Source of the DNA: the human T2T-CHM13v2.0 reference genome, Homo sapiens
NCBI RefSeq assembly: GCF_009914755.1
Contig: NC_060948.1
Strand: one strand, 5' to 3'
DNA length: 64,000 bases
A program made the position numbers and the translations under genes. Of this stretch, positions 14,051 through 56,840 are shown piece by piece. Every line of letters begins with the position of its first letter. Positions within the stretch are counted from its first letter, which is position 1. The notes under the pieces are model-generated. The model saw nothing but the letters and a program-made list of their open reading frames with translations, made no database searches and had not been told where the DNA came from.

Positions 14051-14093
<43 letters not shown>
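14048..14093 (+). repeat. (TAAA)n microsatellite
   Basis: About 11 perfect taaa units inside a satellite monomer. Confidence 0.95.
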
Positions 14094-18900: not shown

Positions 18901-18940
18901 AAAGTTCTGGAATTATAGGCATTAGCCACTGTGCCCGGCC
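18901..18940 (-). mobile_element. Alu 5'-end remnant (40 bp)
   Basis: aaagttctggaattataggcattagccactgtgcccggcc is the reverse complement of the first 40 nt of Alu. Confidence 0.85.
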
Positions 18941-33600: not shown

Positions 33601-36600
33601 GAGAGTGTCCAGGCAGGAGAGTCATATCACCTGGATTATGGGCCCAGAGATATGTTACAATGCCTCCTGTTGAAAGGGTCCGGGGAAGAGACTCATGTAA
33701 TTTGGATGCAGGGCTTAGAAATGTTATACTCTTCACTAGAAGCAGGGTTGAGGCAAGAGAGGAGAGTCACATAACCTAGACTATGTGTCCAGAGATATGT
33801 TATGATCCCTTCTGAGGACACTGTGAAGACACAAGGGTCAAATCACCAAAGTCCTTGGCCCAGGTACATGTCAATATGCCATCTGTGGGCTAGAATTAGG
33901 CAGAATTATTAAATCACTCAGGAGAAAAGTAAATGTCACTATAACACCTGTGGACATGTTCAGGGATGAGAGTCATCATCCTGTATACATCTTGGCTCCA
34001 GGTACAAGAGTTGTTATTAGGCCTTTGACCTGGTCTTAGGTGTATGGCATAATATCACCTGTGGTCCAGGAGAAGAAAGGACAGCCGCATCACCTTAGTG
34101 GGTGCTGGTCTAGTGAATTATTACAATGTATTTTTGGGGCAGGACTCCGGAAGATGAGTCACATCACCAGGATACTTGTTTCAGTGATATATCTAAATCC
34201 CCACTATGGGGAGGGCTGAGGCAGGACAAGAGACAAAGTTCACATACTCAATTGGCCTGGATATATGTCACAATTTCCCCTGTGTGCACAAACATACAGG
34301 AGAGTAACCTCACCTTGGTGCTGGGTTCAGCAATGTGTCACAATCTCCCTGGTTGTCAGGGCCCAGGCAAGAGGGAAGAAACATCACCTAGGTTCTGAGA
34401 CAAGTGATATGTTACAAATTTTCCAATTGGCAGAGCCCTTGCACAAAAGAGTCACATCACCTGGGTTGAGATACCAGTTATGTGTCACAATGCACCCCAA
34501 GTGTCAGGCAAAGGCAATAGAAGGAATTCATGTCACTTACATGATGGACCATGATAAAAGCCACAATGCTCCTTGTAGGCAGGGTTCAGGCCAATATTTC
34601 ACATCAGCTGGGTGCTTGTCTCAGTAATACGAAAAAGTGCCCTCTGTCACATTGCCAAACAAGATGTTGTATATTGCATATATGCTTGATGCATATATGT
34701 CACAATTTCAACAGCGGTCTGGGCCTACAAAGGAGAGACAAAACACTCAGATGCTGGACAAAGTCATACTTCTCAATTACACAGTCAAAAATGTTCAGAA
34801 ATAAGTTTTACAGTCCCACAGAAGTCCTGGCTTCTGGTATGAAAGTCAACAGCTCCTATGATTTGGGTCAAAGTACAGGAGTCACAATCTGAACAATGGG
34901 CAATATCCCTGTATAAGAACCCCAGTTCCACTTGAAGACTGTTCCAAGAGATGAGTCAAAGCACTACAGGTATGCTGAATTATGGTTGAAACATCATCAA
35001 ACTACCCATGGATCAAATTCATGTATGAGAATACAACTTTAAGCTTTGACTGCTTATGTGTGTGATATTTAGTATCTCACTCATAGGCTCTGTTTATTTG
35101 TGAGAATGACAACTGTGTCAGCTGGGTGTGGATCCAAGAGTCACAATAGCCACTTGGTTGCTGGTGTCTGTTATGACACTTTTTGTACCACTCAGACCTT
35201 ATATAATATGTCTAAGTAGCATATTTTTCTGTAAATATTTACAGGTGGGAGATCTAGGACTTTACCCATGGTCCTAAGACTAGCTATGATAGTTGAAGTA
35301 TCATTCCTGGCTGGGACTAGGTATGAGAGTTATTATTGTGAATATGAGCTGAAGAAGGGTAGCACAACTTAGGTGTTGTGCCAAGCAATATGTCACAATG
35401 CTCTCTTTAGGCAGGGTCCAGTAATTAGTGTTACATTAACTGGGTGCTGGACCCAGCAATATGACACAATCCCAATGTGGGGGGCGGGGAACAGAAAAGT
35501 AATGAGAGCAAAAGAGCAAAAACACCTACAGAATAGGCCCACAATATGTGAAAATACTTTCTGTCACTCTGGCACAGGGAGGAGAGTTACATCATCAGGG
35601 CGTGGGGCCCAGAAATATGCCCTAATTATCTCCTTAGGCAGGAGTGAGGTAGAAAAGAAATATCATCTGGTTCCTGGCCCCTGCCAATATGTCAAAATTT
35701 CTTTTCATGGGCATGGTTCAGAAGCAAAAGTAGAGTCATATTGCATAAGTATTAGCCTTAGCGATATGCCACAACACCCCATTGTTAAGGCTCAGGGAGA
35801 AGAAAAGAGTCACTTCAATTAAAAAACAATCTTACATATATAGTCCAATGGCCCAAGTAAGCGGGGATCTGGCAGTAGAGAGGAGTCATATCACCTAGGT
35901 GCTTCACTAGGTATATGACATAATCTAACATGTGAGGTGAAAGGAGGTAGAGGAGCCACATCACCTTGATGCTGGGTTCTTAGATGTGTCACCAGGCTCC
36001 CTTAGGACAGGACCCAGGCAAGACTGTTACAACAAATAGATGCAGGTTCCACACTTATGTCACAAGGCTCCATGTGATCAGGGCCCAAGAAGTAAGTCAT
36101 ACCACCTAGATGACAGGCCCAGAATTATGTCACAATGTCCTCTTTGAGGCATAACCCTGTTGAAAGAGTGTGATCACCTGGATGCCTAGCCTAGCAATAG
36201 GACACCATCCAGGGAAAGCAGGACCCAAAAGGAGAGCAACATAACTTAGGTGATAGGCCAAGCGATTTTTCACAATGTCCCTCTTAGGACATGGGCCTAG
36301 CATAGGAGTGCCATACCCTGTGTGCCTGGCCCAGCTGTATGTTACTATTCCCCACTGTGTGAAAGGCCCATTCTAATGAGGAGAGTTATGTCACCCAAGT
36401 GGTTGACATAGTGAAATGTCACAATAATTTCTGTGGGCATGGCTCAGGAAAATGTAATATGACCTGGGTGCTGGATCTGGAGATATGTCATGATTCTTAC
36501 AGACAGCAGGGCCCAGGAAGGAGAGAAATATCACCCAGAGGTGGGTGGATACCACAATAACATATGTGGGCAGAAACCAGTATGGAGTGTCAGATCACAC

Positions 36601-39600
36601 AAAAACTCTACAAATACTTATATTACAATCACACTTGCAGAAAATTCCCAAAAGGAGATTTACAATATCACACCTGTCCTGTTTTCATGAGTGAGAGTTG
36701 GCTTCATATATGTGAGATGGTGACAGTTCTTACTGTCAGCAGGGTGTGCATATGCGACTCACAATTTCACCTTTTCTGCTGGGTTCTGTTATGACACTCT
36801 CTGTATAAGCCAAAGAGTTTAAGAAATATCTGAGACTGTTGTAATCTTATTTGAACTTTTTTTTTACCAGAAAGATATTTAATCACTCTTGTTACTAAAG
36901 CAAGTTATGAGAGTCAAAATTACTCCTTTTTGTGGGGTCTACATATAAGAGTCATTATCATGCCTGTGAGCTGTGCCTAGGTATATGCCATAATTTACTC
37001 TATGGTAATGAAACAGACAACACAGACAAGTCACCTAAATGCTGAGCCAGAAATTTTCATATATTCTCCTTGTAAGCAACTCCCTAGAAGAAAAGTTGCA
37101 TGTCTTGGGTTTACACTGAGATGTATGGCATAATGCCCCTTGTGGGCAATGTCTAGAAGGAAAAAGAGACTCATATCACCTAAACGATAGGCCCAAAGCT
37201 ATGTCAAAACTTCTCCTGTTGAAAGGACCCGGCAAGAAAGTCATATGAATTTGATGCAGTGCTTGGAAATGCTACAATCCCCAGTGGAATCAGGGTCTAG
37301 GAAGGAGAGTCAGGTAACAAGATGATGAGTCCAGCAACATGTAGCAGTCCTCCCTGAGGATATTGTTAACACAACAGAGTCAAATCACCAAGGTGCCCAG
37401 CTGAGGTAAGTGTCCAAATGTGTGGGTTGCACTTAAGCAGAATATTCAATCACTCATGAGCTGGGCAAAGGTATATGTCACAATAACACTGGTGGAAAAT
37501 TCCAGGAATCAGAATCATCATCATGCGTATAACCTGGCTCCAGGTTTAAGAAGAATGATTAGTCCTTTGATCTGCTCTCAGGTATATGGCACAATATCAC
37601 CTGTGGGAAGAGGAAAAGCAGGAAGGTCACGTCACCTGGGTAGGTGCTGGTGCAATGAAATGTCACAATTCTTGTAGGCAGAATCCTGAAAGAAGGGTCA
37701 TATCATATGGATGCTGGTTTAAGTAATATACCAAAATTCCACCTGTGGGTAATGCTTAAAATTAGAGTAGACTCAATTCATCTAGGCGACCGACCTAGAT
37801 ATGTCACAATAGCTTCTATGTCCAGGACCAAGGTATTGAAATGACCTCACCTTGGCACTGGGGTTAGCAATATGTCACAATATCCCCTGTGTTCAGGGTG
37901 AGGCAAGAGAGGAGAAACATAACCTAGCTGCTGAGCCAAGGGATAGGTTACAAAGATTCCTGTTGGCATAATCCAAAACACAGAGTCCAATCACCTGGGT
38001 GCAGTACCTAGTTTTGTGTCACAATGCACCGTAAGTTCAGGGCCAAGAGAGTAGAAAGGAGTCACATCACTTATGTGATGGGCCTAGATATAAGCCCAAA
38101 TACTATTTACAGGCAGGAATCAGGTAAATAATTCACATTACCTGAGTGCTGGTTCTAGTGATATGTAAAAGTGCCTTTTGTAGGCAGGCCCAGGCACCTA
38201 GACTTAGGTGTATACTCCACATATGTCACAATTTTATCTGTGGTCATGGTCTAAAAAGGAGAGTAAAATTATTCAGGAGCTGGGCTAACTTTTATGTCCT
38301 AATCACACACTAAGCAATATTCAGAAATAAGTTACACAGTCCCACACAAGTCCTGACTTTGAGTATGTGAGTTCATATCTCCTATGAGTTGGTCAAAGCT
38401 GAGAAGTCACAATCTCAACAATGGGCAAGATCCATATATTAGATGCCCAATCCCACATGAAGATTGTGCTTCAGTAAGGGAGTCGTGGAACCTCAGTTGC
38501 TGAATTATGCATCACCAAGTGACCTCTGTGTCAGATCTGTGTATGTGATGACCAATTTCAACTTTCAACTGCTCTTTTTTTTGTGAGATTTAGAACCTTA
38601 CTTCTGGGCCCTGTTCTTGTGAGAGAATGACAATCAGGTAAGATGAGTGTGCATCCAAGAGTCACAATCACACCTGGTTTCAGTTCTGTGTTATGATACT
38701 TTTTGTACCACTCAGGTTTAATGTGATATGCCTGAGTGTCATAATCCTCTGTGAACTTTATACAGTTAGGAGACCCATTACTTTACTTATGGTCATAATA
38801 TTAGCTATGAGAGTCAAAATTTCTTTCTCTTCTGGGTCTAGGTATGACAGTTATTTGTGATGTGAGCTGAACAAAGGTATATGTCACAAATTCACCTGTG
38901 TACAGAAACAAGGCAGGAGAGTTTCATCACCTGGATTCTGAAGTCAAGATACCTTACAAACTCCTTTGCAGGCCAGGCCAAGCCAGAAGAGTCACATCGC
39001 CTTGGTACAGCCTCAAATAATATGGCACCATGTCCACTGTAGACAGGTTTGTAGAAAAAGTGGAGAGTTACACCACCTAGGTCCTGGGCTCAGCATTATG
39101 TAATAATCTCCTCTTCTGGCAGACTCCAGAATAAAGAGGAACATTGCATTACCTTGTTTTCCACTCATCAGTATATTATAATTCCTTCAGTGGGCAAAAC
39201 CTAGACAGAAGACAAGAGTCACATTTCTTAGATGCTACATTCAACGATGTCACAAAGTTCCTTGAGGGTAAAGCACATGCAAAATAGACAAATCACCTAG
39301 TTGATAGGGTTGGAGATATGTGATAATATCCCTTTTTGGCAGAACCCAGAGAGAAGAGTCACATTATTATGATACTGACCCAATGATATGTCGCAATGCA
39401 CACATGGGAAACAATTTAAGCAAAATTTTAACATCTAAGTACTAGACCCAGTAATATGATGCAATCTTTTCATCTTTGAGGATGACACCGTTAAGTGCTA
39501 GCTTGGTGTATATATGAGTCACAATGTCACGTGTGTGCTGGGTCATGATATGACACACTCTACAACATCCAAAGGCTTTATATAGCATGCAAGACAGTCA

Positions 39601-42600
39601 GAGACTACTCTGACGCCCACTGGCTTATGAGAACTGACAATCTTAAATACTGCCTTAAACCCAGGTATGATAGTCAACATCTACCATTTAGGCTGAGTTC
39701 AGAAATAAGACTCATTTTTATACCTGTGAGCCTTGTCCAAAATGAGTCATGATCACACCTGTGGCCAGATCCACATATGAGAGTCACAATTCCCCCTTGG
39801 TACTGTTTTCCCTTGTCAGACTCAGTAACTCAACAGTGTGCTTTCTAAACGTGGTATGATGACAACTTTTACTTTTACCTGGCTGTGTAATTTAGATTCA
39901 CAATCTTAACTTTTTGCTGGGCCTTGTTATGTAACTCTCTGTACCACCAAAAGGAGTTTATACAATATGAGTCAGTGTTGAAAACTTCTGTGAACTTTGT
40001 ACAAATTTGAAACCCAGCATTCTACCTGTTACCTTACTCATAGTGATGAGAGATAAAATCTCTCCTATTGACTAGATTCCATTATAAATTTGACCATCAT
40101 GCCTGTGAACTGAAGCAAGGCATATATCATAATCCCATTTGTGGACAAAAGTTAGGAATAGAGTAACATCACTTAACTTAAATGATGTGGCAAGAAATAT
40201 GTCACAATACCGTTTCTAGGAGGATATGTCAAAATACACTCTGTGGTTCTGACACAGGCAGGACACTAGTATCTTCAGGGTGCTAGGCCCACCAGTCTGA
40301 CATAAATCCCTCTTCATTCAGGAATCTGGCAGAAGAGTGACATCATCTGGGGGAATAGGACAAAATTTCCCTTAGTGGGCATAGTTCAGAATAAAGAAGA
40401 GAGTCACATGACCTAAATGCAACGCTTAGCAATATGTCACAATGCCACCATTTTAAAGGCACAGGTAGGGGAAAAGAGTCATATCCCTTAGGTCATGGGC
40501 TTAGTGATATGTCTCAATGTCCTGAGTAGGCAGGGCACAGTAGACAAGAAGAGTCACATCGCCTAGGTGCTTCCCTAGGAATATATCACAATGTAACATG
40601 TGGGCAGAAACCAGGCAAAATAGCCAGATCACTTGGGTGCTGGGTCTTGATATATGTCACTAGGCTCTGTTAGGACAGCACCTGGGCAAGAGAGTTACAT
40701 CACCCTGGTGCAGGTTCTCTGCTCATGCCTACAATATGTGTAGGGCCCAAGGAGGGAGTCATTTCACCTAGGTGATAGGCCCAGAGATCTATCACAATGT
40801 CCACTATGAAGCATAGACCTGGCAAAAGAGTACCATCACCTGTGTCCATGGTATAGAAATATGCCAGTCTCCAGGTTGGCAGGGTAAAAGCAGGAGAGCC
40901 ACATAACCTAGGTGATAGGCCCAGAGATTTGTCACGATGCCCTCCTTCTGTCATAGCTCTGGCAAAAAATATCTTCACCTGTGTGCCTTTCCTTGCATTA
41001 CATAACAATCCTTTCTTTGTGCAGGGTCCATTACAGAGAGGAGAATTACCTCCTATGAGGTAGACACAAAACTATGTCACAATAATCTTGTTGGGGATGG
41101 TGCAGGCAAGAAAGTAACATCACCTGGGTGCTAGATCCAGTGATATATCACAATACATACTGAGGGAAGGGCCCAGGCAGGAGAGTCACATCACCTCTAG
41201 GTTGGCCTCAATAGATATCACAATCCCATATATGCGCCTGAACAACTCTGGATAGCCAAAATACCCAGGTGCTTTGCAAAGATTTATATCACGATCACAG
41301 TCTCAGAAAATTTCACAGATGATATTTACAATATCACACGTTTTGCTTTTATGTGTGACAGTTGGCTTCATCCATGTGAAATGATGACAGTCCTTACTGT
41401 TCAGCTGGGTGTGCATACAAGAAACAGAATTTTGCCTGTGGGCAGAGTCCTACTATGACTCTGTCTGTAGAACTCAAAGACTTTGTAAAATATATGTAAG
41501 TATTGTAATCTTTTGTAACCCTTGTACAATAAGGTGATCTAGGATATCACACATGTCCCTAAACTTGGTTACAAGAGTCAAAATATCCTCTACTGGCTGA
41601 CTCCCCATAGAAGAGTCATTATCAAGCCTGTGAGCCATACCTAGGTATATGTTCCACTTCCCTCTGTGGTTGTGAGGCAGGCAGAACAAATACATCACCT
41701 AAATGCTGGGCCAAAAATATTCCAATATTCCCTTTTTAGATGGGGTCCTGTCCAAAATGTCACAAAATTTGTGTGCTAGGATCAGCTCTATGACACAATG
41801 TCCCTTGTGGGCAGTTTCCAGGCAGAAGATGAGAGTCATATGATCTAAATGATCAGCCCAAAAATATGTTACAATGCCTCCTGTTGGCAGGGCCCAGGCA
41901 AAAATTTCATATCATTTGGATGCAGTTTTTAGAAATGCTGCAATTACCAAAGGAAGCATGGTACAGGCAGGAGAGGAGAGTCATGAAATGCAGATGATGG
42001 GCCCAGAAATATGATACAATCTACCCTAAGGACATTGTTAAGATACCAAGAGTCAAATCACTAAGGTGCTTGTCTCAGGTATTTGTCAAAATCTCATTTG
42101 TGGGCTACACTTGAGCAGAATTATTAAGTCACTCAGGAGCTGGTGAAAGGTATATGTCACAATTACATTTGTGGAAATGTCTAAGAATAAGGGTCACCAT
42201 CATGCACATATCCTGGATCCCGGCATATGAGTTGTTATTAGGCTCTTGTTATGGTCTTTAGTATATGGCACAATATGACCTGTTGCCAGAGAGAAGGCAA
42301 GAAAATCACATCACACACGTGAGTGCAGGTCCATTGAGATGTCACAATCAACCTTATGGGCAGGACCCTGGCAGAAGTGTCACATAATCTGGTTTCTGGT
42401 TTTAATGTCATATCAAAATCTCCTCTGTGGGCAGAAATTTGGCAGAAGAGGAGACACACTTCACCTAGGGAATCAACCTAGATATATGTCACAATGGCCA
42501 ATATGTGCACTACCAAGGCTGGAGAGTGACCTCACTTTGGTGCTGGGCAAGAAATATGTCACAATCTCCTTGTGGACAGGTTCCACTGAAAAGCAAAGAA

Positions 42601-43517
42601 ACAACACCTATGTGCTGAGCCAAGTGATATGTTCCAATGCTTCCTGTGGGCACAACCCCAAAAGGAGAATCATGGCACATTTGTGCAGTACTGAATTACG
42701 TGTCACAATGCGCTGTTTGCGCAGGGCCAAGGCAATAGAAGGAAGTCATATCACTTGCATGATGGACGTAGATACAAAACACAATTATTTTTGTAGGTAG
42801 GTTTCAGGCAGACAATTCACATCACCTGGGTGATGGTCCCGGTGATACATAAAATTTATCTTTATGGACAGAACAAAGGAAGATGGTGTTTATTCTATAT
42901 ATGGTACAATTTCATCTGTGTCCTGGGCCTAGAAAAGACAGTCAAATTATTCCTGTGCTGGGCAAAATTAACCTGTGACAATCACACTCTCAGAAAGGTT
43001 CAGAAAGAATTTTTACATCACACAGAAGTCCTGGCTTTTTTTAGGTGAGTCAAATCTTTCTATGAGTTGGGCCGAAGTAGAAGAGTCACAATCTCAACCT
43101 TGGGCAAAATCCATGTATAAAAGCCCAAATCTCACTTGAAGATTGTGTTCCAGCAGGGGAGTCAGAGCACCACATGGGTGCTGAATAATGGTTCAAATAT
43201 TACCAATCCACCTGTGAATCAGATCCATGTGTGAGAGCTATTATTTCAATCTTCAACTTCTTTTTATGTGTGAGATTAAGGACCTCATGCCTAGGTCCTG
43301 TTGATGTTTGAGAATAACAATCGTGTCAGCTAGGTCTGCATATAAGAGTCACATTCTCACCTGGTTGCTGGTCTCTGTTATGACACTCTTTGCACAATTA
43401 AGGCTTTATATGATATACCTGAGTCTTATAATCCTTTGTGAACTTTATACAAGTGAAAAACCCAGGACTTTACCCCTGGCTATGATATTGGCCATGATAT
43501 TCAAAATATCTCTACTG

Positions 43518-43806
43518 GGCCAGGCGTGGTGGCTCACGTCTGTAATTCCAGCACTTTGGGAGGCCAAGGCGGGTAGATCACAAGGTGAGGAGATTGAGAC
43601 CATCCTGGCTAACATGGTGAAACCCCATCTCTACTAAAAAATACAAAAAATTAGCCAGGCGTGGTAGTGGGCACCCGTAGTCCCAGCTACTCAGGAGGCT
43701 GAGGCAGGAGAATGGCGTGAACCAAGGAGGCAGAGCTTTCAGGGACCAGAGATCGCACCACTGCACTCCAGCCTGGCCTACAGAGCGATACTCTGTCTTA
43801 AAAAAA
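43518..43806 (+). mobile_element. AluY-like element in satellite
   Basis: Diagnostics gagaccatcctggctaac and ggagaatggcgtgaacc. Imperfect TSD aaatatctctactgg / aaataaatctattgg. Confidence 0.93.
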
Positions 43807-45695
43807 TAAATCTATTGGCTAAGTCCAGGTTTGTGAGTTACTATAGTGATTGTGTACTTAACCAAGGTACATGTCACAATTTCACCTGTGAGAAGGCACA
43901 AGGCAAGAGAGTCACATCACATGGGTGCTGAGCCAGTGATACAGTATAATCTCATTTGTAGGCTGGGCCTAATGTGAAGAGTCACATCACCTGGGTAAAG
44001 CCTCAAATACTATGTCACCAAGCTCACTATAGAGAAGGAAGAGAAAAAAGGAGAGAATTATTCCACCTAGGTACTGGGATCTGCAATATGTAATAATTCC
44101 TTCTCTTGCCAGAGCCTAGAATATGAAGGACAGTCACATAACCTAGGTTTTGCAATCAGCAGCATGTCACAACTTCTGTGGTGAGCAGGACCCAGGCGGG
44201 AGAGGAGAGTCACATTATCTGGATGTTAAGTCAAACAACATTTTACAATGTCCTCTGGAGGCACAGTACAGGCAGGGGAGACAAATCACCTAGCCTATAG
44301 CCCAAGAGATATGTGATAATATCCCCTGTTTTCAGGGTTCAGGCAGAAGAGTCACATTATTATGATTCTAACCAGTGATATGTAACAATGCACCCATGAG
44401 AAGATATTTAAGCCAAAAATCCTCAACACCTGGGTATTAAGTGAAATAATTTGCCAAATCTTTTCATCCTTGAGAATGATACTATTAACTGTGAGCTGGA
44501 TGTGCATATTAGAATCACAATCTTATGTTTTTCCTTGGCCATTGTATGAAACTCTACACATTCAAAAGCTTTATCCAGCATCAATCAGTGTTGCAAACCA
44601 CTTTGAAGCCTACGTGCTCATACGAATTCATGATCTTGTAATTGCCCTAAACCGAGGTATAATATTCAATATCTTTATTGTAGGCTGCATTCAGGGATGA
44701 GACTCATTATTATTCCTGTGAGCTAGATTAGGGATTAAGGCACCATCCCACCTGTGGCCAGATTCACATATGAAGGTCACTATTCCAACTTTGCTCTGTA
44801 TTAACTTATTAGTCTCATGATCTTAACAGTGGGCTTTGGACATGTGGGATTGTGACAACATTTGCTTTCACCTGGATATATATATAGGAATTCCAATCTG
44901 AACTTTTTGTTGGTCACTATCATGAAACTCTCTGTACCACATAAGGAGTTTATACATTAAGAGTTAGTGTTGTAATGTTCTCTGAGCTTGGTACAAATAT
45001 GCAACTCAGGACTTTACCTATTCCCGTTAGCCTAGTATTGAAAGGCAAAATATCTTCTATAGGATGAATCCCAGTATAAGTTTGAAAATCATGCCAGTGA
45101 ACTGAAGTAATGCATATGTGATGCATTTTGGGGAAAAAACCTAGGTGGGAGGGTAACATCACTTAGGTGCTAGCTATGCCAAGCAATATGTTAAAATGCC
45201 CTCTCTAGGCAGAAAATAGGAATGAGAGTCACATTAAATGTGTGCTGGACTCAGGAATATGACACCATCCAACATGAGGGAAAAAGCAGGCAAGTTATGA
45301 GAGCCAAAACACCTACATAATTGGCCTAGGATATGTCAAAATACCTTCTGTGTCTCTGGCATAGGCATGAGAGTCACATTATCAGGGTGTAGCATTTATA
45401 GTAGGTAGGACAGAGGCAGAAAAGGAGAGTCATTTCTCCTAGGAGTTTCCATAGTTACATGTCACAATCTAACATGGGAGCAGTAATAAGGCAGAAGTGC
45501 CACATTACCCGTGTACAACCTCAAATAATATGTCACCATAGCTAATGTAGACAGGTTTGAAGAGAAAAAAGAGAAGCACACCACCTGGTTGCTCTGCTCA
45601 GCAATATATAGTAATTCCCTCTCATGGCTGAACCCAGGACAAAGAGAAGAATCATGTCACCTAGGTTTTGCAGTACTGGTATGTCACAATTTCTT

Positions 45696-45993
45696 TTTTT
45701 TAAATTTTATTATTATTATACTTTAAGTTTTAGGGTACATGTGCACAATGTACAGGTTTTTTACATATGTATACATGTACCATGTTGGTGTGCTGCACCC
45801 ATTAACTCGTCATTTAGCATTAGGTATATCTCCTAATGCTATCCTTCCCCGCTCCCCCACCCCACAACAATCCCCAGAGTGTGATGTTCCCCTTCCTGTG
45901 TCCATGTGTTCTCATTGTTCAATTCCCACCTATGAGTGAGAATATGCGGTGTTTGGTTTTTTTGTCCTTGCGATAGTTCGCTGAGAATGATGG
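45696..45993 (-). mobile_element. Short 5'-truncated L1PA 3' end, antisense
   Basis: ttattattatactttaagttttagggtacatgtgcac...ctgagaatgatgg. Perfect 21-bp TSD actggtatgtcacaatttctt at 45675-45695 and 45999-46019. Confidence 0.95.
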
Positions 45994-48900
45994 ATGAAAC
46001 TGGTATGTCACAATTTCTTAAGTGGGAAGGATCCAGACAGGAGAGTAGAGTCATATGTCACAATTTCTTAAATGGGCAGGATCCAGGGAGGAAACTAGAA
46101 TCATATAACCTAGATGCTATGTCTAGTGATTTGTAACAGTGTCAATTGCCAGCACGGAACTGGCAGGAGAGACATCTCACCTAGCCAGTAGACTCAGAGA
46201 TATGGGAAAATATACCCTGTTTGCAGGGCCCTGGCAGAAAGTTATCATCATTATCACATTATCGTGTGATAATGATATACCATCATTATACACCATCACA
46301 TTATGATGATTCTGACCCATAATGCCCTTAGGAAAAGGAATTCACTCCAAAAATTCTGAACACCAGGGTACTAGGCCAAGGGACATAACACAATCTCCTG
46401 ATCTTTAATGGTGATATCATTAGTGATCAGGTAGTTGTGTATAGGAGAGTCATAATCTCACATGTGTGCTGGCCATTATGTGACACTCTTTACAACACCT
46501 GAGAACTTTATAAAATATGGATAAGAGCTGCAAACCTCTCTGAGGCCTACATGCTTATATGGACTCATGATCTTGCATATTGCCCTAAACACAGAAATGA
46601 CAGTCAAAATTTCTCCCATAGGCTGGCCTCAGTGATGAGACAATTATCATGTCTGTGAGCTGGATCCAGAAATGAATCACCATGCCACATGTTGACAGAT
46701 TCACTTATGAAAGTCATAATTTCAACTTTGGGCTGTATTCATTTATCAGGACCTCAGCATTGGGCTTTGTAAATGTAGGATGGTAACAAATTTTACACTC
46801 ACCTGAGTGTGTAGTTGAGAGTCACAATCTTCACTTTTTGCTGGGCCCTGTTAAGAAACTCTCTGTACAGCCCAAGAGTTCTTGTGATATCAGTTAGTGT
46901 AGTAAAACTCTGTTAGATTTGTATGAATATGCAATGAAGGACCATCCATATTGACCTAAGCCTGGTGGTTAGAGTCAAAATATCTCCTACTGGCTGAATC
47001 CAAATATAAGCTTAAACATCATCACTTTGAACTGAAGCAATTTGTGGGCAAAAAACTAGGCAGAAGGTTAACATCACTTAGGGGCTAGGCCAAGCAATAT
47101 GTCACAATGCCTTTTCTAGGCAGGGCCTGGGAAAGAGGTGAAATTAACTGGGGGCTGGAGCCAGCAATGTGATACAACCACACAGGGAAGAAACACAATA
47201 AAGTGATGACAGCCAAAACACTTCTAGTATGGAAAAAAGATATGTCAAAGTAACATATGTGGTCCTGCAAAAGAGTCACATCATTAGCGTGCTGGGCCAA
47301 TCAATATGTTCCAATTCCCTCTTTATTCGTGACCTAGGGAGAAAAGTAACATCATCCAGGTACTGGGCCCCAAAATTCAGCAAAAATCCTGTTCATAGGC
47401 ATTGTTCAGCAAGAAGGCGGGAGTCACTTTACGTAAGTCCTGGGCTCATCAATATGTCACACTCTTCCCATTGTAAAGGCCCAGACAGAATAAGAGAGTC
47501 ACATCATGTTAGCCGTGGGCTCAGAGATATGGTTCAATGTCACCAGTCAGAAGGGCTCAGGCAGAAAAAGAGTCTTATCACCAATATGCTCTTTACATAT
47601 ATGTCACAATTTAATATGTGGGCAGAAACCAGGCTGAGGGGCCGCATCACCTGATCCTCAGTCCTGAGATATTCACAAGTCCCCTTAGAAAAAACCCCAG
47701 ACAAGAGACTTACATAACCTAGGTGCAGGTTCCACTCTTTTTGTCACAAAAATCCATGTGAGAAGGGCCAATCAGGAAGTCACCTCACCTAGGTAATAGG
47801 TTCAGAGATATGTCACAAAGCTTTCCTTAAAATATAGCCCTGGCAAAAAGAAGTTGCATCACCACTGTGCCTAGCCTGGCAATATGTCACAACTCAAGCG
47901 GGCAAGTCTCAAGAAGAACAAAATTATCTATATGATACACCCTGTGATGTGCCAAAATGCCCTCTTTTGGGTGTGACCCTGGCAAAAGAGTATCAACAAC
48001 TGTGTGTCTGGCCTTGGTATATGTCACTATTCTGCCCTGTGTGCAGGGCCCATTCTAGAGAGGAGAGTTTCTAAGTAATGGACACAGTGAAATGTCACTA
48101 TGATATCTGTGGATATGGCCCAGGCAAGAATGTAACATCACCTGTGTGCTGGATCCATTGATGTCACCATTATTACCGAGAGGAGGGCCCAGGTAGAAGA
48201 GTCACATCACTTCAAGGTTGGCCCATGTACTTATCAAAATCCCATAAGTAGGATCAAACCAATCTGAAGAGTGAAATCACACAGGTGCTTGACAAAGATT
48301 TATATCACAGTCAAAATGGAAGAAAATTATTGGGACTAGATCTACAATACAACACATATCGTGGTTTCATGTAGAACAGTTACCTTCATCCATGTGATAG
48401 TGAAACTCCTTACTGTCAGGTGGGTGTGCATGTCAGACTCACAATTTCCTCTGTGTGCTAGGCCCTACTATGACACTCTCTATACAACACAAGTTTGTTA
48501 TAAAATATATGTGAGCATTGTAATCTTCTGTGACCTTTTTATCAGAAGGAGATCCTGGATGGCACTCATGTTTCTAAACACAGCTATGAGTCAAAATTTC
48601 TCCTATTAGCTGGGTCCTCATATGAGAGTCATTTTCATGCCTGTTAGCTGTGCCTAGGTATATGTCATTATGTCACCATCCCCTCTGAAGTTATTAAACA
48701 GGTAGGATAGCCACATCACCTTAATATTTTCTTTGTAGGCAGGGACCTAACACAAAATCAGAACACTTGGGTGCTAGGCCCAACTGTATGGCATAATGCC
48801 TCTTATGGAGAGTGTCCATGCAGGAGAGAAGAATCATATTACCTCAATGATGGGCCCAGAAATATGTCACATGACTCATGTTGAAAGGGCCCAGGCAAGA

Positions 48901-50780
48901 GATTCATGTCTTTTGGATACAGTGCTTAAAATGCTACACTTCTCATTGGAAGTAGGGTTCAGGCAGTAGAGGAGACACATAACCTAGACAGTGCGTCTAG
49001 AGATATGTTATAATATTTTCTGCAAAAACTGTTAACACAGGAGAGTCAAATTAACGAGGTTCTTGGCACAGGTCTATGTCAAAATGTCATCTGTGGGCTA
49101 TAACTAGGCAGGATTATTAAATCACGCAGGAGCTGGGCAAAGGTACATGTTACAATAACACCTGTGGAAAGGTTCAGTGATGAGAGTCACCATCCTGCAC
49201 ATGTCCTGGATCCAGGTACAAGAGTCATTATTAGGCCTTTGTTGTGGTCTCAGGTATATGGCTCAATATCACCTGTGGGCAGGGAGAAGAAAGGAAAGTC
49301 ACATCGCTTGAATGGGTGTTGGTCTAGTGAAATGTCACCAGCCTCCTTGTGGGCAGGACCCTGGAAGAAGAGTCACATCATGTGGATTCTGGTAGCAGTG
49401 ATATATCTGAATCCACACTGTGGGTAGTGCTTAGGAAGGAGAGGAGACGAACTTCACATAGACTATTAGTCTTCATATGTGTAAAATGGCACCTATGTGC
49501 AGGACAAAGGCAGGAGAGTGACCTCATCTTGGTGCTGAGTTCAGCAATATGTCACAATGTCTCTGGTGGTCAGAGCCCAGACAAGAGAAAAGAAACATCA
49601 CCTAGGTGCTGAGCCAAGTGATATGTTACAATGCTTTCTATTGGCAGAACACTCCTCCCCCCAAAAAAAGAGTCACATCATCTGGGTACAGGACGCTGTA
49701 TTGTCACAATGCGCTATAAGGGCAGAAGCAAGGCAGTAGAAGAAAGTCACATCATTTTACACGATGGACCTAGATAAAAGCCACGATGCTCTTTTTAGGC
49801 AGGGTTCAGGCCAAGATTTTACATTAGCTGGTTGTTGGTACCAGTGATATGTAGAAGTGCCCTTTGTTGCATTGACAAAGAAGGTGCTATATAATGCTTA
49901 GGTGCTTGGTGCATGTATGTCACAGTTTGAACTGTGCTATGGGCCTAGAAAACAGGGTGAAAACCTTCAGAGGCAGGTCAAAGTCATACTTCTCAATCAT
50001 ACACTTGAAAATGTTCAGAAATAAGTTTGACAGTCCCACAAAAGTCCTGGCTTCAGGCATGTGAATGAACACCTCCTATAAGTTGGGTTCAAGTACTACA
50101 GGAGTCACTATCTCAACAATGGGTAAGATCCATATATAAGAGCCCCAATCCCACTTAAAGATTGTGGTCCAGTAGGAGAGTCAAAACACTGCAAGTCTGC
50201 TGAATCATAATTCAAAAGCCACCAAGCCACCTGTGGGTCATATTCATGTATGAATGTAACAATTTCAAGCTTCTACTGTGTACGTGTGTGAGATTTAGTA
50301 CCCTATTCCTAGGCTTTGCTCATGTATGAGAGTGACAATCGTGTCAGCTGTGTGTGGATCCAAGAGCCACAATAGCACCTAGGTGTCGGTGCCTGTTATG
50401 ACACTATTTGTGTCACTCAGGTTTTATATGATATGCCTGAGTAAGTAGCATACTTCCCTCTGAATTCTTACAGGTAGAACATCTAGAACTTTACCCATGG
50501 CCATAAGACTGGCTATGAGAGTTGATATATTTCCCCTGGTGGGGTCTAGGTATGAGACATATTATTGTGCATATGAGCTAAATCCAGGTTTATGTCACAA
50601 TCTCACTTTTGGATAGAAATATGACAGAAGAGTCACATCATCTGGGTAATGAGCCAGGGAAACATTTTAACCTCCTTTGTAGGCAGGAGCCATGCAGAAG
50701 AGTCATAGAGCATGGATAAAGTCTCCAACAATATGTCATCATGCCCACTGTATACAGGGCTGAGAAAAAAGCGGATACTC

Positions 50781-51102
50781 GGCTGGGCATGTGGCTCATG
50801 CCTGTAATCTCAGCACTTTGGGAGGCTAAGTTGATTTGATCACCTGAGTTCAGGAGTTCAAGACCAACCTGACCAAGATGGTGAAACACCGTCTGTACTA
50901 AAAATATATAAAAAAATAGCTGGGTGAGGTGGCAAGTGCCTGTAATCCTACCTACTTGGGAGGCAGAGGCAGGAGAATCGCTTGAAACTAGAAGGCGAGG
51001 TTGCAAAGAGCTGAGATTGTGCCCTTGCACTGCAGTGTGGGTGATAACAGCAAAACTCCATTTCAAGGGAAAAAAAAATATATATATATAGTGGATATAT
51101 AT
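50781..51102 (+). mobile_element. Alu (AluS-like) with (TA)n-degenerate tail
   Basis: ggctgggcatgtggctcatgcctgtaatc...gatcacctgagttcaggagttc. Flanks gcggatactc / gtggatagtc. Confidence 0.92.
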
Positions 51103-54100
51103 ATCGTGGATAGTCACACGCTCTGGGTGCTGGGCTCAGCAATATGTTATAATTACCTCTTCCGGCAGAGTGCAGGACAAAAGAGAGTCACATCACCTAG
51201 GTTTTCCACTCAGTGGTATGTCACAATTTCATCACTGGACAGGATTCAGGCAGGAGAGGAGAGTCATATTACTTAGATGCTAGATCTAGCGATATGTCAC
51301 AGTGTCCCCTGTGGGTAGGGCACTGGCAGGAAAGACACATCATCTAGTTAATAGTCCAGAGATATGTGATAATATTCCCTGTTCCCTGAGTTCAAGTAGA
51401 AGAGTCACATTGTTATCATTCTGACTCAGTGATATTTCTCAATGCACCCATGGGAAAGAACTGAAATAACATAGTCTCAACACCGGGTTACTAGTTCTAG
51501 TGACGTGACACAATCACCTTATCTTTTAGGGTAGCACCTTTAATTGTTAGCTTGGTGTGTATATGTAAGAGTCACAATCTCACATGTGTTCTTCTTCAGC
51601 TTATAACACAGTCTAAAACATCTGAAGGCTTTATGCAACATGAATGTGAATTGCAAACCATTCTAAGGCCTATGTGCTCATATTGACCCAAAATCTTACA
51701 TATTGCCCTAAATTCAGTTATGATAGTTAACATCTCTCTTATAGGCTGGGTTCAGACAGGACACATCTTGTTATGTCTGTGACCTGGTTTCAGAAAATAA
51801 TCACTATGTGACATGTACCAAGATCCACAGATGAAAGTCACAATTCCATCTTTCTAATTTATTTATTTGCTAGACTAAGACCTTCAACAGTGGGCTTGTT
51901 AATGTGAGATAGTGACAACTTTTGCTCCCACCTGCATGTGTAATCAAGAGTCACAACCTTAACCTTGTGCTGGGCCCTGTTATGAAGGTCTGTGTACCAG
52001 CAAAGGAGTTTACAGTGTATGAGTTATTATTGTAAACATCTGTGAGCTTTGAACACTATGCAACTCATAACCTTATATATTGCATTAAGCTTACTGATGA
52101 GAGACAAAATACCTATGACAGGTGGAATCCCAATTTAAGTTTGATTATCATGCCTGTGAAATGAAGCAACATAAAATTTATAATCCCATTCACAGAAAAA
52201 TAAACTTGGCAGGAGTGTAGCATAATTTAGCTGCTGTGAATATGTCACAATGCTTTCTCTAGGCAGGGTCTAGTAATGAGGGTTACATTAACTGTGTGCT
52301 GGAACCAACAATATGACACAATGCTATATACATATATAAAACAACCCAGACAAATGTTGAGAGCAAAACCCCTAGAGATTTGCCGAAGGTATGTAAAAAT
52401 ACTTTCTGTTGCACTGGCACAGGCAGGAGAGTTATATCATCAGGGTGGGGGGCCCAGCAATATGCCATAATTCTCTCTTTATGCAGGACACAGGTAGAAG
52501 AGAAATGTCATCTGTGTACTGGGTCCTGCAATACATCCAACATCCTTTTCATGAGCATGGTTTGGGAAAAAAAAAGAAGAGTCACATTACCCAAGGATTG
52601 GGCTTAGCAATATGTCACATCATCCCATTGTAAAGACTCAGGCAGAAGAAAAGAGTCACATCACATAGGACACGGGCCCAGATATATGGCCCAGTGTCCC
52701 AAGAAGGCATTGGTCAGGCAGAATAGAAGAGTCATATCATGTAGGTGCTTCCCTAGGTATATGACACAATCTAATATGTGAGTTGAAGCCAGGCAGATGA
52801 GTCAAATCAGCTTGATGGTAGGTCTATAGATATGCTGCATGTCTCCTTAAGAAAAGACCCAGGTCAGAGAGCTACAACAAATACTTGCAGGTTCTGACCT
52901 TATGTCACAATGCTCCTTGTGGATAGGGCTCCAGCAGGGAGTCACATCACCTAGGTGATAGACCTAGAGACATATCACAGTGTCATCCTTGTGGCATGGT
53001 CCTTGTGAAAGAGCTCCATCTCCTGTTTGCCCGGCCTAGCAATATGTCACTATCAAGGTAAGCAGGATCCAAGGTGGACAGCAACATCACCTATGTGATA
53101 GGCCCAGAGATTTTTCACAGTGCCCTCTTCAGGACACAGCATTAGCAAAAGAGTACCATCACCTGTGTGTCTGGCCCAGCCATATGTCACTATCTTCCAC
53201 TGTGTACAAGGCTCATTCTAATGAACAGAGTTATATCACCTAAGTGGTTGAAACAGTGATATGTCACAATTATTCATTTGCATGTTGCTCAGTCAAAAAT
53301 GTAACATAATCTGGGTGCTGGATCTAGTGATATGTCACGATTCTTACGGAGAGAAAGGCCCAGGCAGGAGAGTCACATCACCTAGAGGCTGGCCCAGGTA
53401 GATATCATAATGATATATGTGGGCTGGAACCAGTCTGGGGAGTCAAATCACACAGGTGCTGGGCAAAGATTTATACCACAATCACACTGGCAGAAAATTC
53501 CTGAGTTGAGATTTACAATACTACACATGTTCTGTTTTCATGGGTGACAGTTGGCTTTATATATGTGAGAGGGTGACAGTCCTTACTTTCAGCTGGGTGT
53601 GCATATGAAACTCATAATTTCACCTTTCTGCTTGGTTCCATTATTACACTCTCTGTACAAACCAAGGGCTTTATAAAATATCTGAGGCTATAATAATCTT
53701 CTGTAGCCTCCTTTTCTATCAGAAAGAGATTTAATCACTGATGTTTCTAAAGCAAGTTAGGAAACTCAAAATTACTCCTATTTGTGGGATCTATATATGA
53801 TGGTCATTATTATTCCTGTGAGCTGTAACTAGTAAATTGTGTGTATCACAATTTACTCTGTGATAACGAAAGAGTTACAACAGCCAAGCCACTTAAATGC
53901 TGAGCCAGAAATGCCTATTGTTGTCAGTGTCCAGGCAGAAGAGGAGAGAATATTACCTCAATGATAGGACCAGATATGTTTCAAAATGTCTCCTGTTGAA
54001 AGGACTAGGCAAGAGAGTCATATGATTTGAATGGAGTGCTTATAAATGCTACAATCCCCAGTAGTACCAGAGTTCAGGCAGGAGAGGAAAGTCTGGGTAA

Positions 54101-55800
54101 CCTAGATAATGGATGCAGAGACATGTTACATCCTTCCTGAAGGTATTGTTAAGACATGAGAATCTAATCAGCAAGGTGCTCAGCATAGGTGAATGTCTAA
54201 ATATTATGTGTGGGCTACACCTCAAAAATTGATTAAATCACTGAGAAAGTTGGGTAAAGGTATATGTCACAAAAACACAGGTGGAAAGTTCCAGGAATGG
54301 GAATCACCATCATGCATATATCTTGACTCCAGGTTTAAGAGACATGATTAGTCCTCTTATCTTGTCTCAGGCATATGGCACAATATGACCTGTGGGCATA
54401 CAGAAAGCAGGAACGTCACATCCCCTGGGTGAGTGCTGGTCCAGTGAGATGTCACAATTCTTCTTGTGGGCAAGACCCTGAAAGAAGAGTCACATCACCT
54501 GGATGCTGGTTTTAGTGATACATCAAAACTCCCCCTGTGGGCAGGGCATAGGAAGGTGAGGAGACTCACTTCACCTAAGCAATGGGCCTAGATATATATC
54601 ACAATGGCCGTTATGTGCAGGAGCAAGGTATGAAAGTGACTTCCTCTTGCTTTATTTAGCAATATATCACAATCTCTCCTGTGTTCAGTGTGAGGCAAAA
54701 GAGGAGCAACATCACCTAGGTGCTGAGCCAAGTGACATGCTATAAAGCTTCCTATTGTCAGAACCACAAACTCAGAGTAGCATCACCTGGGTGCAGTACT
54801 GAGTTATGTGTCACAATGCACCATAAGTGGAGGGCCAAGGCAGAAGAAGGGAGTCACATCACTTACATGATGAACCTAGATACAATCCACAATGCTTTTT
54901 ATAGACAGGGATTAGGCAAAATTTCACATCACCTAGGTGCTGGTCCAAATGATATATAAAAGTGCTCTTTGTAGGCAGGTCCAGGCAAATTTTCTTAGGT
55001 GTATGGTCCACATATCTCACAATTTTATCTGTGGTCATTGCCTAAAAAGGAGAGTAAAGTTATTCAGGAGCTGGGTTAACTTTTATGTCCTAATCACACA
55101 CTAAGAAATATTCAGAAATACGTTTCAAAGTCCCAAACATGTCCTGGCTTCGTGTATTTCAGTCAACATATCTTGTGAGTTGGGTCAAATCAGAGGAGTC
55201 ACAATTACAGCAATGGGCAAGATCCACTTATAAGATGTCCAATCACACATGAAGATTGTGTTGCAGTAGGGGAGTCATAGCCTCATAGGTGAAAGTCCTT
55301 ACTGTCAGCTGAGTGTGATATGAGACTCACAATTTTACCTTTCCTCTAGGTTCTGTTATGCCACTCCATACAAGGCAAGGGCTTTGTAAAGTATCTGAGG
55401 CTATTATAATCTTACGAGACCTTTTTACCAGAAAGAGATCAAAGACATTACTCTTGTTTCTAAAGCAAGTTACAAGAATCAAAATTACTCCTATTTGTGG
55501 GGTCCACATATGATACTCATTATCAGGTCTGTGAGTTGTGCCTAGGTATATGTCAAAATTTACTCTGTGGTAATGAAAAAGGCCCGACAGCTACATAACC
55601 TAAATGCAGAGGCAGGAATTGTTCCAATAGTTTCCTCATAGGCAAGCTCCTGACAGAAAAGCCCTATAACTTTGGAGCTATGCCCAACTGTATGGCACAA
55701 TGTCCTTTGTGGGCAGTGTCCAGGCTGAAGAGGAGAATCATATAATGTAAATGACAGGCCCCAAGTACGTCACAATGCCTCCTGTTGAAAGGGCGAGGCA

Positions 55801-56840
55801 TGTATGTTTTCTAATTATAGTCATTTTAACTGGAGTGGCTTGGTATCTTATTGTGGCTTTGATTTGCAGTTTTCTATGAATAAATAATGATGAGCATCTT
55901 TGCATGAACTTGGTCACTTTTGTCTTCTTTGGAGAAATGTCATTTAAGCTCTCTTGCCTATTATTAAATTTTGTGTTATTTTTGCTGTTAAGTTTGTTGT
56001 ATATTCTGTATCTTTTCCCTGTGTCATATGTATATTTTGCAAATTATTATTCTATGCTGAAAATTGTCCCTTTACTCTGCTATTTTTGCTATGTAAATAT
56101 TGTTTAGATTCTGGTGATTTCACTTGTCTGCTTTTGCTTTTGTTGCCTGTGCTTTTGAGGTCCGATTTAAAATATTTTTCCCTCTCCTATTTGGTAAATA
56201 ATTTCTCCATGTTTTATTCAAATACTTTTATAGGTGTCAGTTTTATATTTAAATCTTTTTTATTTTTATGTAAGTTCTTTTATGGTAACAGGTAGGCACC
56301 TAGTTGTTTTCATTTAATCAATTTTCCTTGACACTGTTCATTGAAACTACTGTCTTGCCTTAAATGCATACACTAAACAACTTAAAAATTACTTGGCAAT
56401 AGGTTTATTAACTGATTATTGTGATCACTGCATACTTTGGTCTATATGTCTGTTTTCCATGCCAATATCATTCTTTCTTGTTATTAGTTTTGTCATATAT
56501 TTTGAAGTCAGTTAGTCTGATGCTTTCAGCTTTATTTTTTTCACAAAATTTCTTTGGCTATTTGGGAAGTTATTTTGTTCCTTATAAATTTTAGGCCTGC
56601 TTTTTCCATTTCTGTGAAAAAAAAAAAGTCATTGGTGTTTTTGTAGGCTTTGCACTGCATCTGTAGATTGCTTTGAGTAGCATAGCCACTTTAATAATAT
56701 TTTTTATAACTCATGAGCAAAAAAATTGCTAAAATTTTTCATTTTTTTAGTTTCTTCATCAGTGTTGTATAATTTATAGTGTAGAGGGCGGTTTATCTTT
56801 TTAATTAAGTTTATGGCTAGCCACCTTTATCTTTTATTTT
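55801..56840 (-). mobile_element. Old L1 (L1MA/L1PB-like) ORF2 3' region, antisense
   Basis: cattttaactggagtgg...tggtatcttattgtggctttgatttgc, tcttctttggagaaatgtc and catctgtagattgctttg. Confidence 0.85.

What the first reader, a model, noticed from the sequence alone, without database searches (positions are those of the whole stretch)
43920..49231. Satellite macro-unit encodes three collinear blocks matching the Y orphan protein BPY2/VCY2
Seen on the minus strand: 49231-49153 reads IMTLVPGSRTCAG then, after a frameshift, SHH*TFPQVLL. 47133-47060 reads SQALPRKGIVTYCLA*PLSDVNLL. About 44033-43923 reads IVSLVT*YLRLYPGDVTLHIRPSLQMRLYCITGSA. Recalled BPY2: MMTLVPRARTRAG...SHPCPRFSQVLLTEGIMTYCLTKNLSDVNIL...KVGLLTYYVKLYPGEVTLLTRPSIQMRLCCITGS. 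The three matches lie in protein order on one strand, separated by ~2 and ~3 kb like exons. Inference: BPY2's coding exons were recruited by splicing from this beta-satellite macro-unit, and each unit here is a disabled pre-gene or paralogous template. A de novo origin of BPY2 has been proposed before as I recall; the explicit mapping to satellite subunits is the point to check.
Basis: partly seen in the sequence, partly recalled or inferred. Interest (0 to 1): 0.85.

Follow-up and report, generated by a model that had tools for sequence, protein, structure and literature searches.

The report
Never-coding BPY2 look-alike in decayed beta satellite
This stretch of the human Y short arm is an unannotated, never-functional relative of the sperm gene BPY2, and it lies in a badly decayed beta-satellite repeat array whose reverse strand also supplied at least two of the three BPY2 coding exons examined.

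Summary
All three minus-strand translations are present as quoted. The true BPY2 coding exons, read from the three identical Yq copies in this assembly, hit those same places in order: e1 74% (E 2e-6), e2 79% (E 3e-12), e3 86% (E 4e-29). The stretches between them align to BPY2 introns.

It is one of dozens of about 5-kb macro-subunits, 70-85% alike, on Yp11.2, Yq, 8q11 and 7q11. It is probably not the annotated pseudogene BPY2DP. It was never a working gene. It keeps the ancestral exon-1 stop (TGA/TAA in 20 of 22 homologues), lacks the two insertions found only in BPY2, has ATA at the first Met, and carries a private stop (e2) and a near-private one (e3).

De novo origin of BPY2 from non-coding 8q11/7q11-type DNA, with shared disablers and a duplicated 5'UTR segment, is already published (Cao 2015, PMC4370482).

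The satellite claim is also supported. A profile of real 68-bp beta satellite gives 272 hits in the window against 10-14 in shuffles. Monomers lie head to tail with a modal spacing of 71 bp, and BPY2 exons 2 and 3 lie on antisense monomers. Four literature searches found no paper linking BPY2 to beta satellite.

The parts
49153..49231 (-). Exon-1-like block. ATA ATG stands where BPY2 has ATG ATG. It has the shared ancestral TGA stop and no BPY2-type insertions. The donor CAG|GT is kept.
   Evidence: (74%, E 1.9e-6)
47053..47133 (-). Exon-2-like block. The acceptor AG is kept. It has a private TAG (1 of 33 copies) and a 16-nt gap in the pairwise alignment relative to BPY2 (not seen in the other copies aligned). 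It lies on antisense beta-satellite monomers at 47044-47111 and 47117-47177.
   Evidence: (79%, E 3e-12)
43923..44033 (-). Exon-3-like block. Acceptor AG and donor GT are kept. Its TAG is seen in 2 of 23 copies. It lies on antisense monomers at 43894-43953 and 43958-44023.
   Evidence: (86%, E 4e-29)
43800..49300 (-). One macro-subunit of the exon-1-bearing clade. It is collinear with the whole BPY2 coding unit, introns included, and carries an Alu at 45681-45980. About 51% is recognisable as beta-satellite-like monomers.
30700..56000 (+). Decayed beta-satellite-like array with monomers in plus orientation, organised into about 5-kb subunits of three old clades.
10000..21400 (+). The same decayed array on the other side of the NUMT. 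It holds a second collinear e2/e3-like pair (17705-17588 and 14919-14821) and the e3-like block (21032-20934) of the unit split by the NUMT.
1..4500 (-). Inverted block of the same monomers, in minus orientation.

Best explanation
Window 43.9-49.2 kb, minus strand, is one unannotated non-coding paralogue of the roughly 5.3-kb unit that carries BPY2/VCY2 coding exons 1-3. It lies in a very old, decayed array of beta-satellite-like monomers (mode 71 bp). That array was reorganised into about 5-kb macro-subunits and copied as segmental duplications between 8q11, 7q11, Yp11.2 and the Yq green amplicons.

Shown here: the unit carries the ancestral non-coding state. It has a stop 14 codons after the ATG, no enabling insertions, and no first ATG. 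It has since gained a stop of its own in the exon-2-like block, a stop in the exon-3-like block that one other copy shares, and a 16-nt gap in the exon-2-like block. It therefore never encoded BPY2.

Also shown: BPY2 is read antisense to the monomer consensus. Exons 2 and 3 each sit on two adjacent monomers. Both exons read the best-kept monomer core in the same frame, giving G-x-x-T-Y in each.

Inferred: the antisense monomer consensus carries a CCTAG|GTGA motif that offers ready-made splice donors and acceptors. The exon-3 donor aligns to this motif. Testis transcription across such an array could therefore splice monomers together, and two insertions in exon 1 of one Yq subunit then opened the 106-codon frame.

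The window copy most likely has no protein function. Its value is as a record of the pre-gene state.
For: Collinear match of genome-derived BPY2 exons and introns.

Exon-1 alignment of 22 homologues: only BPY2 has the 5-nt and 3-nt insertions; 20 of 22 have TGA or TAA at the shared stop column; the first ATG is present in 2 of 22, namely BPY2 and the 7.59-Mb copy.

Tree of 24 copies of the 2-kb part: the window unit lies in the 14-row clade with the BPY2, chr8 and chr7 units but is not nested in or beside BPY2. Its nearest row is chr7 at path 0.17.

Beta-satellite profile: 272 hits against 10-14 in shuffles. There were 0 hits in 37 kb of control loci, and 44-50 hits per roughly 6 kb in the chr8 and chr7 homologues. 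After two rounds of iteration: 374 hits against 0-3 in local shuffles; 0.00 coverage in the NUMT and in 56-64 kb; about 0.5 coverage in the array. Monomer spacing has its mode at 71 bp, and autocorrelation at lag 71 has z 7.5.

Monomer alignments over BPY2 e2 and e3.

Cao 2015 (PMC4370482, sections read) reports the same disablers in the chr8, chr7 and primate copies.
Against: Exon 1 of BPY2 itself is not recognised by either profile. Only its flanks are, so its monomer origin rests on the lattice and on the window copy (49206-49269, E 5e-4).

Only about half of the array is recognisable as monomers, and Tandem Repeats Finder finds none.

The iterated consensus (56 of 67 positions equal to the canonical one) is biased toward its seed.

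The clade that holds the window unit is poorly resolved, with forks drawn open.

No expression data were available. No primate genomes could be searched, so the ancestral-state argument rests on human paralogues plus the published primate comparisons.
Confidence: 0.85

Rival explanations
1. It is a decayed pseudogene: a copy of an already coding BPY2 gene that later picked up stops and a frameshift.
For: All three splice-site pairs are kept, and one ATG is present at the second Met position. The stop in block 2 is private and the stop in block 3 is shared by only one other copy, so both look late.
Against: The unit lacks both exon-1 insertions, which are unique to BPY2. It carries the same TGA that 20 of 22 homologues, including the chr8 and chr7 copies, have at that column. 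It is no closer to BPY2 than to the autosomal copies.
Confidence: 0.05
2. It is the annotated pseudogene BPY2DP itself, so nothing here is unannotated.
For: It lies on Yp11.2 on the minus strand with ZNF736 and TRIM60 pseudogenes nearby (hub table). Cao 2015 describes this setting for BPY2DP. The published coordinates are from another assembly, and I could not lift them over.
Against: Cao 2015 says BPY2DP has gained the start codon. The first ATG is ATA here, but it is kept in the copy at chrY 7,589,680-7,593,747, which is also the closest paralogue of the coding unit (e1 82%, e2 98% over 56 nt, e3 85%). The hub table lists no BPY2DP in the window or within 100 kb.
Confidence: 0.07
3. The resemblance is chance or low-complexity similarity within a repetitive region.
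For: Short pieces of exons 2 and 3 hit many places in the array because monomers resemble one another.
Against: The three best or near-best hits are collinear with BPY2-like spacing. The introns align over 5.5 kb at 75-76% with E reported as 0. Splice sites are conserved.
Confidence: 0.01
4. The unit is functional as a non-coding RNA or regulatory element, for example an antisense partner of lncRNA LOC105377231 or a source of small RNAs.
For: Splice sites are retained in all three blocks. Cao 2015 reports expression of the chr8 homologue BEYLA (the section heading was seen; the section was not read).
Against: No minus-strand transcript is in the hub table. The terminal branch is long (0.12) and comparable to other Y copies, with no sign of constraint.
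Confidence: 0.05

Closest known systems
BPY2/VCY2 (three Yq11 green-amplicon copies)
   Same: Exon-1/2/3-like blocks are in the same order, strand and spacing. The introns are alignable and the splice dinucleotides are kept.
   Different: About 75% nucleotide identity. No open frame: there is a stop in each block, both exon-1 insertions are missing, the first ATG is ATA, and exon 2 has a 16-nt gap.
BPY2DP, the Yp11.2 pseudogene described by Cao et al. 2015 (PMC4370482)
   Same: It lies on Yp11.2 on the minus strand, carries the conserved exon-1 stop, and has ZNF736P and TRIM60P neighbours.
   Different: The first ATG is absent here. A different Yp copy, at 7.59 Mb in this assembly, is much closer to BPY2 and fits the published description.
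BEYLA/LINC00293 (8q11) and the 7q11 ZNF-cluster copy, the non-coding autosomal homologues
   Same: They share the disablers, and they are the nearest relatives of the window unit by identity (chr7 81-85%, chr8 79-81%). They consist of the same decayed beta-satellite monomers.
   Different: The window copy is Y-linked, has a longer terminal branch (0.12 against 0.05-0.08), and has an extra stop of its own in the exon-2-like block (the exon-3-like TAG recurs in one other Y copy).
Canonical beta satellite (68-bp Sau3A family), here taken from the 4q35 and 10q26 arrays distal to D4Z4
   Same: Monomers are head to tail in uniform orientation. Consensus identity is 56 of 67 positions, and the ATATGTCACAAT core is conserved.
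   Different: The period mode is 71 bp, not 68. Copies are too diverged for Tandem Repeats Finder. The GATC-containing stretch is not kept in the local consensus. The array is organised into about 5-kb subunits and interrupted by Alus and a NUMT.

Membership tests
BPY2/VCY2 protein-coding gene | Open reading frame through coding exons 1-3 (106 codons over four exons, per Cao 2015) | tested here: not met
   There are stops in all three blocks and a frameshift in block 1.
BPY2/VCY2 protein-coding gene | Exon-1 enabling insertions that bypass the ancestral TGA/TAA | tested here: not met
   They are present in 1 of 22 aligned homologues, BPY2 only, and absent from the window copy.
BPY2/VCY2 protein-coding gene | Homology of exons and introns in collinear order | tested here: met
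   (75-76% over 5.5 kb).
BPY2/VCY2 protein-coding gene | Exon 4 with a TAA stop | not tested
   Exon 4 has about 5 codons and could not be located without a transcript sequence.
BPY2DP (annotated pseudogene) | Start codon retained together with the conserved exon-1 stop (Cao 2015, section read) | tested here: not met
   The first ATG is ATA here. The stop is present. The 7.59-Mb copy meets both conditions.
BPY2DP (annotated pseudogene) | Genomic position of the Ensembl record | not testable with these tools
   No liftover was available. The published coordinates are from an older assembly.
Beta satellite (BSR/Beta) | Sequence similarity to canonical 68-bp monomers | tested here: met
   An HMM of 190 real monomers gave 272 hits against 10-14 in shuffles and 0 hits in 37 kb of control loci.
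Beta satellite (BSR/Beta) | Head-to-tail tandem arrangement with a period of about 68 bp | tested here: met
   Spacing is 68-76 bp with mode 71. Autocorrelation peaks at lag 71 and its multiples. The period is slightly longer than canonical.
Beta satellite (BSR/Beta) | Homogeneous array detectable as a tandem repeat | tested here: not met
   Tandem Repeats Finder found no such array at a minimum score of 50 or 30. This is a decayed relic.

The most novel reading that the evidence does not exclude
BPY2 is a human protein-coding gene whose coding sequence was assembled from the antisense strand of decayed beta-satellite monomers. Exons 2 and 3 each cover two monomers and read the conserved monomer core in the same frame, which gives the protein an internal G-x-x-T-Y repeat. 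The monomer's palindromic CCTAGG/GTGA motif supplies at least the exon-3 donor (exon 2's acceptor aligns to a separate, locally mutated part of the monomer, and the exon-1/2 donors were not mapped to it). The dozens of non-coding subunits on Yp, Yq, chr8 and chr7, including this one, are snapshots of the pre-gene state. Satellite arrays next to KRAB zinc-finger gene clusters would then be a so far undescribed seedbed for de novo genes.
Probability: 0.5. Interest if true: 0.6.

Novelty: new member of a known kind. Interest (0 to 1): 0.42.

Why it matters
BPY2 is one of the nine Y ampliconic gene families and lies in AZFc. Its de novo origin from non-coding DNA is published, so this locus mainly adds one more unannotated fossil of the pre-gene state.

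The added value is the nature of that non-coding DNA. If the satellite derivation of exons 2 and 3 is indeed unreported, BPY2 is a concrete and testable case of a satellite repeat giving rise to a spliced coding gene. The many paralogous subunits then give a natural series for dating each enabling change in T2T primate Y chromosomes.

It also shows that about 40 kb of this window, which is unmasked in the NCBI file apart from Alus (hub table), is relic satellite.

Tried and rejected
Tandem Repeats Finder on 36-58 kb and on the whole window found no satellite array. This nearly led me to reject the satellite claim. The short paralogous hits, the autocorrelation and the profile search reversed that.

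I tried to place BPY2DP by coordinate arithmetic from recalled assembly offsets. The two candidates (7.59 and 7.74 Mb) could not be separated that way. The 7.74-Mb copy has no exon-1 match, so I favour 7.59 Mb.

Exon 4 was not sought, because I had no transcript sequence and would not use a recalled one.

Protein-database, structure and complex tools were not used. They hold no relevant human data and would not bear on a non-coding locus.
Full report
**1. Observation**

- Block 1 (49231 downward) gives the 13-residue start-like piece, then W and a stop. The SHH*TFPQVLL piece appears in a second frame.
- Block 2 (47133-47060) has one TAG.
- Block 3 (44033-43923) has one TAG.

I did not trust the recalled BPY2 sequence, so I searched the window's own assembly with window:43800-49300 on the minus strand. 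The assembly is the T2T human genome, and contig C24 is chrY. The search found the stretch at 73-81% identity in many places:
- 8q11 at 47.0-47.26 Mb;
- 7q11 at 65.58 Mb;
- several places on Yp11.2;
- three Yq loci (23.79-23.83 Mb plus strand; 24.23-24.27 and 25.85-25.89 Mb minus strand).

The three Yq loci are 100% identical to each other over the 5.6 kb tested.

I fetched one Yq locus and read three open exon pieces from it, all with canonical borders:
- e1: ATG to CAG|GT, 26 codons;
- e2: AG|GTG to AAAG|GT, 118 nt;
- e3: AG|TG to GAG|GT, 106 nt.

Together these make 100 2/3 codons. This fits the 106-residue, four-coding-exon BPY2/VCY2 described by Cao et al. 2015 (PMC4370482; Table 2 and section 16, read).

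blastn of the three exons against the window gave:

| Exon | Window position | Identity | E-value |
|---|---|---|---|
| e1 | 49231-49175 | 74% | 1.9e-6 |
| e2 | 47123-47053 | 79% | 3e-12 |
| e3 | 44026-43928 | 86% | 4e-29 |

Conceptual protein identities are 9/13, 12/18 and 22/31. The intervening DNA aligns to the BPY2 introns at 75-76%, apart from an Alu.

**2. What the locus is**

The window holds more than one such set. A full-length e2 copy at 17705-17588 pairs with an e3 copy at 14919-14821. A third set is split by the mitochondrial insert: an e2-like block at 31911-31814 and an e3-like block at 21032-20934, with an exon-1 homologue at about window 33.9 kb found in the wider search.

Self-comparison of 38-56 kb shows segments of about 1.4 kb and 3.3 kb recurring at 67-76% identity, with one 0.5-kb piece at 83% at an offset of 16.8 kb.

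A maximum-likelihood tree of 24 copies of the 2-kb exon-1-bearing part gives three deep clades of 3, 7 and 14 rows, each with SH-aLRT 100. In the window their order along the minus strand is I-III-II, repeated at about 15-17 kb.

The unit of the finding lies in the 14-row clade together with the BPY2 coding unit, the three other BPY2-locus units of that type, and the chr8 and chr7 units. That clade is star-like, with forks drawn open. The nearest row to the window unit is chr7 (path 0.17, 85% identity over 1948 columns), followed by the chr8 copies (0.19-0.21). BPY2 is about 0.25 away.

**3. Pre-gene or pseudogene**

I aligned 22 exon-1 homologues from the window, Yp, Yq, chr8 and chr7 and counted states.
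- Only BPY2 carries the two insertions (5 nt and 3 nt) that carry the frame past the old stop.
- At the old stop column, 16 copies have TGA, 4 have TAA and 2 have TTA. One of the two TTA copies is BPY2, where it is out of frame.
- The first ATG is present only in BPY2 and in a copy at chrY 7,589,680-7,593,747.
- The window copy reads ATA ATG, as do chr8:47230552 and the first unit of the BPY2 locus.

The window's e2 TAG is private (1 of 33 copies). Its e3 TAG is seen in 2 of 23 copies. Its e2 also shows a 16-nt gap.

The unit therefore retains the ancestral non-coding state and has added damage of its own. This matches what Cao 2015 reported for the autosomal and primate copies: a stop 42 nt after the start, and an insertion plus a TGA/TAA-to-TTA change in VCY2 (section 16). 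It argues against descent from a coding gene.

**4. Is it BPY2DP?**

Cao 2015 describes BPY2DP as a Yp11.2 minus-strand pseudogene that has the start codon and the conserved exon-1 stop (section 19). The copy at 7.59 Mb fits this description. It is also the closest paralogue of the coding unit: e1 82%, e2 98% over 56 nt, e3 85%, and 84% over 3.9 kb. The window copy lacks the first ATG, and the hub table lists no BPY2DP in the window or within 100 kb. I conclude it is probably a separate, unannotated paralogue. I could not lift the published coordinates over to this assembly.

**5. The satellite claim**

Tandem Repeats Finder finds no array. However, short pieces of blocks 2 and 3 hit dozens of places in the BPY2 locus. 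Autocorrelation of 4-mer matches peaks at lag 71 (z 7.5), with further peaks at 140-147 and 217. This is seen across 10-21, 31-38 and 38-56 kb but not across 56-64 kb.

I took real beta satellite from the same assembly. These are the 68-bp arrays distal to D4Z4 on 4q35 and 10q26, found with TRF. That these arrays are the classical Sau3A beta satellite is my recollection.

A profile of 190 of these monomers gave the following.
- Window: 272 hits at E<=10 and 82 at E<=0.01.
- Five dinucleotide shuffles: 10-14 and 0-1.
- Four non-satellite control loci, 37 kb in all: 0 hits.
- chr8 and chr7 homologues: 44-50 hits per roughly 6 kb.

After two rounds of iteration on the window plus the Yq locus, the results were as follows.
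- There were 374 hits in the window at E<=1, against 0-3 in five local shuffles.
- Coverage was 0.46-0.58 inside the array blocks, 0.00 in the NUMT and in 56-64 kb, and 0.05 in 4.5-10 kb.
- Consecutive monomers are spaced 68-76 bp apart, with the mode at 71.
- Orientation is plus throughout 10-56 kb and minus in 1-5 kb.
- The local consensus equals the canonical one at 56 of 67 positions. It is biased toward its seed.

The window is therefore largely a decayed beta-satellite-like array.

**6. BPY2 exons on the monomer lattice**

In the Yq locus, 365 of 398 hits of the unrefined profile, and 515 of 526 hits of the iterated one, are on the strand opposite to BPY2.

| BPY2 exon | Overlapping monomers (Yq locus coordinates) | Iterated profile E | Unrefined profile E |
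|---|---|---|---|
| e2 | 45105-45167 and 45171-45221 | 8e-6 and 4e-8 | 0.05 |
| e3 | 48132-48197 and 48202-48267 | 1e-8 and 7e-6 | 0.004, model positions 2-65 |

Both exons read the conserved core (the reverse of ATATGTCA) in the same frame, as GGC ATC ATG ACA TAT in e2 and GGC TTG CTG ACA TAT in e3. The e3 donor aligns to the monomer's ACCT/AGGT position.

Exon 1 of BPY2 is not itself recognised by either profile. Only its flanks are. In the window copy, a monomer hit at 49206-49269 (E 5e-4) covers the start region.

The idea that the motif predisposes the antisense strand to splicing is my inference and has not been tested.

**7. What is known**

Cao 2015 already gives all of the following:
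- the de novo model;
- the chr8 (BEYLA/LINC00293) and chr7 homologues;
- the shared disablers;
- BPY2DP as a possible ancestral copy;
- an 8.5-kb duplicate of the coding region in the 5'UTR.

I read the abstract and sections 10 (part 1), 16, 19, 20, 21 and 24. The words satellite, tandem and RepeatMasker do not occur in its main text.

Four full-text searches found no paper that holds BPY2 or VCY2 together with beta satellite or BSR. The term sets were:
- BPY2 / satellite / green amplicon;
- BPY2, VCY2, LINC00293 / beta satellite, BSR;
- beta satellite / AZFc / ampliconic / Y chromosome;
- beta satellite / de novo gene / exonization / orphan gene / coding exon.

Only listings and abstracts were seen for those results. 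Subscription journals and public repeat tracks are outside that library, so the link may be known informally. The supplementary figures of Cao 2015 are TIFs and could not be seen.

**8. Verdict**

The locus is an ordinary kind of object: one more non-coding paralogue of a gene whose de novo origin is published. That point is that the coding exons map onto subunits of a beta-satellite-derived macro-repeat. Interest is moderate.

Noticed in passing
window 21469-30635 and flanks 20934-21032, 30646-34117: The 9.2-kb mitochondrial insert (the ND6, CYB, ND1, tRNA-Gln and ND2 pseudogenes in the hub table) sits inside one macro-subunit. It separates that unit's exon-1/2-like blocks from its exon-3-like block. 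About 1.2 kb of the unit seems to be missing at the junction. The insert contains no satellite monomer hits.
   Followed up: partly
G000:C24:7589680-7593747 (L034), minus strand: This is the closest paralogue of the BPY2 coding unit in the assembly (e1 82%, e2 98% over 56 nt, e3 85%). It keeps the first ATG, has TAA at the shared stop, and lacks both BPY2 insertions. It is the best fit to the published description of BPY2DP.
   Followed up: partly
G000:C24:7991790 / 23670540 and 8148386 / 23792706: These two Yp/Yq pairs are strongly supported sisters (SH-aLRT 100, branches 0.06-0.07), in the same orientation and at similar spacing (157 against 122 kb). Yp 7.99-8.15 Mb, which includes this window, therefore looks like an old collinear copy of the green-amplicon stretch upstream of BPY2.
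   Followed up: partly
window 1-4500 versus 10000-56000: The satellite monomers are in minus orientation in the first 4.5 kb and in plus orientation from 10 kb on. The ZNF736P6Y zinc-finger pseudogene lies between them in monomer-free DNA; its 84-bp finger period at 9146-9936 was found by TRF.
   Followed up: no
window 46004-46106: This is the only sizeable tandem repeat that TRF finds in the array (period 50, 2.1 copies). Its unit contains the conserved beta-satellite core TATGTCACAAT.
   Followed up: no
L017 (Yq BPY2 locus) and window 30-56 kb: Y-linked copies have terminal branches about twice as long as the chr7 and chr8 copies (0.11-0.13 against 0.05-0.08). This is consistent with faster change on the Y.
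   Followed up: no
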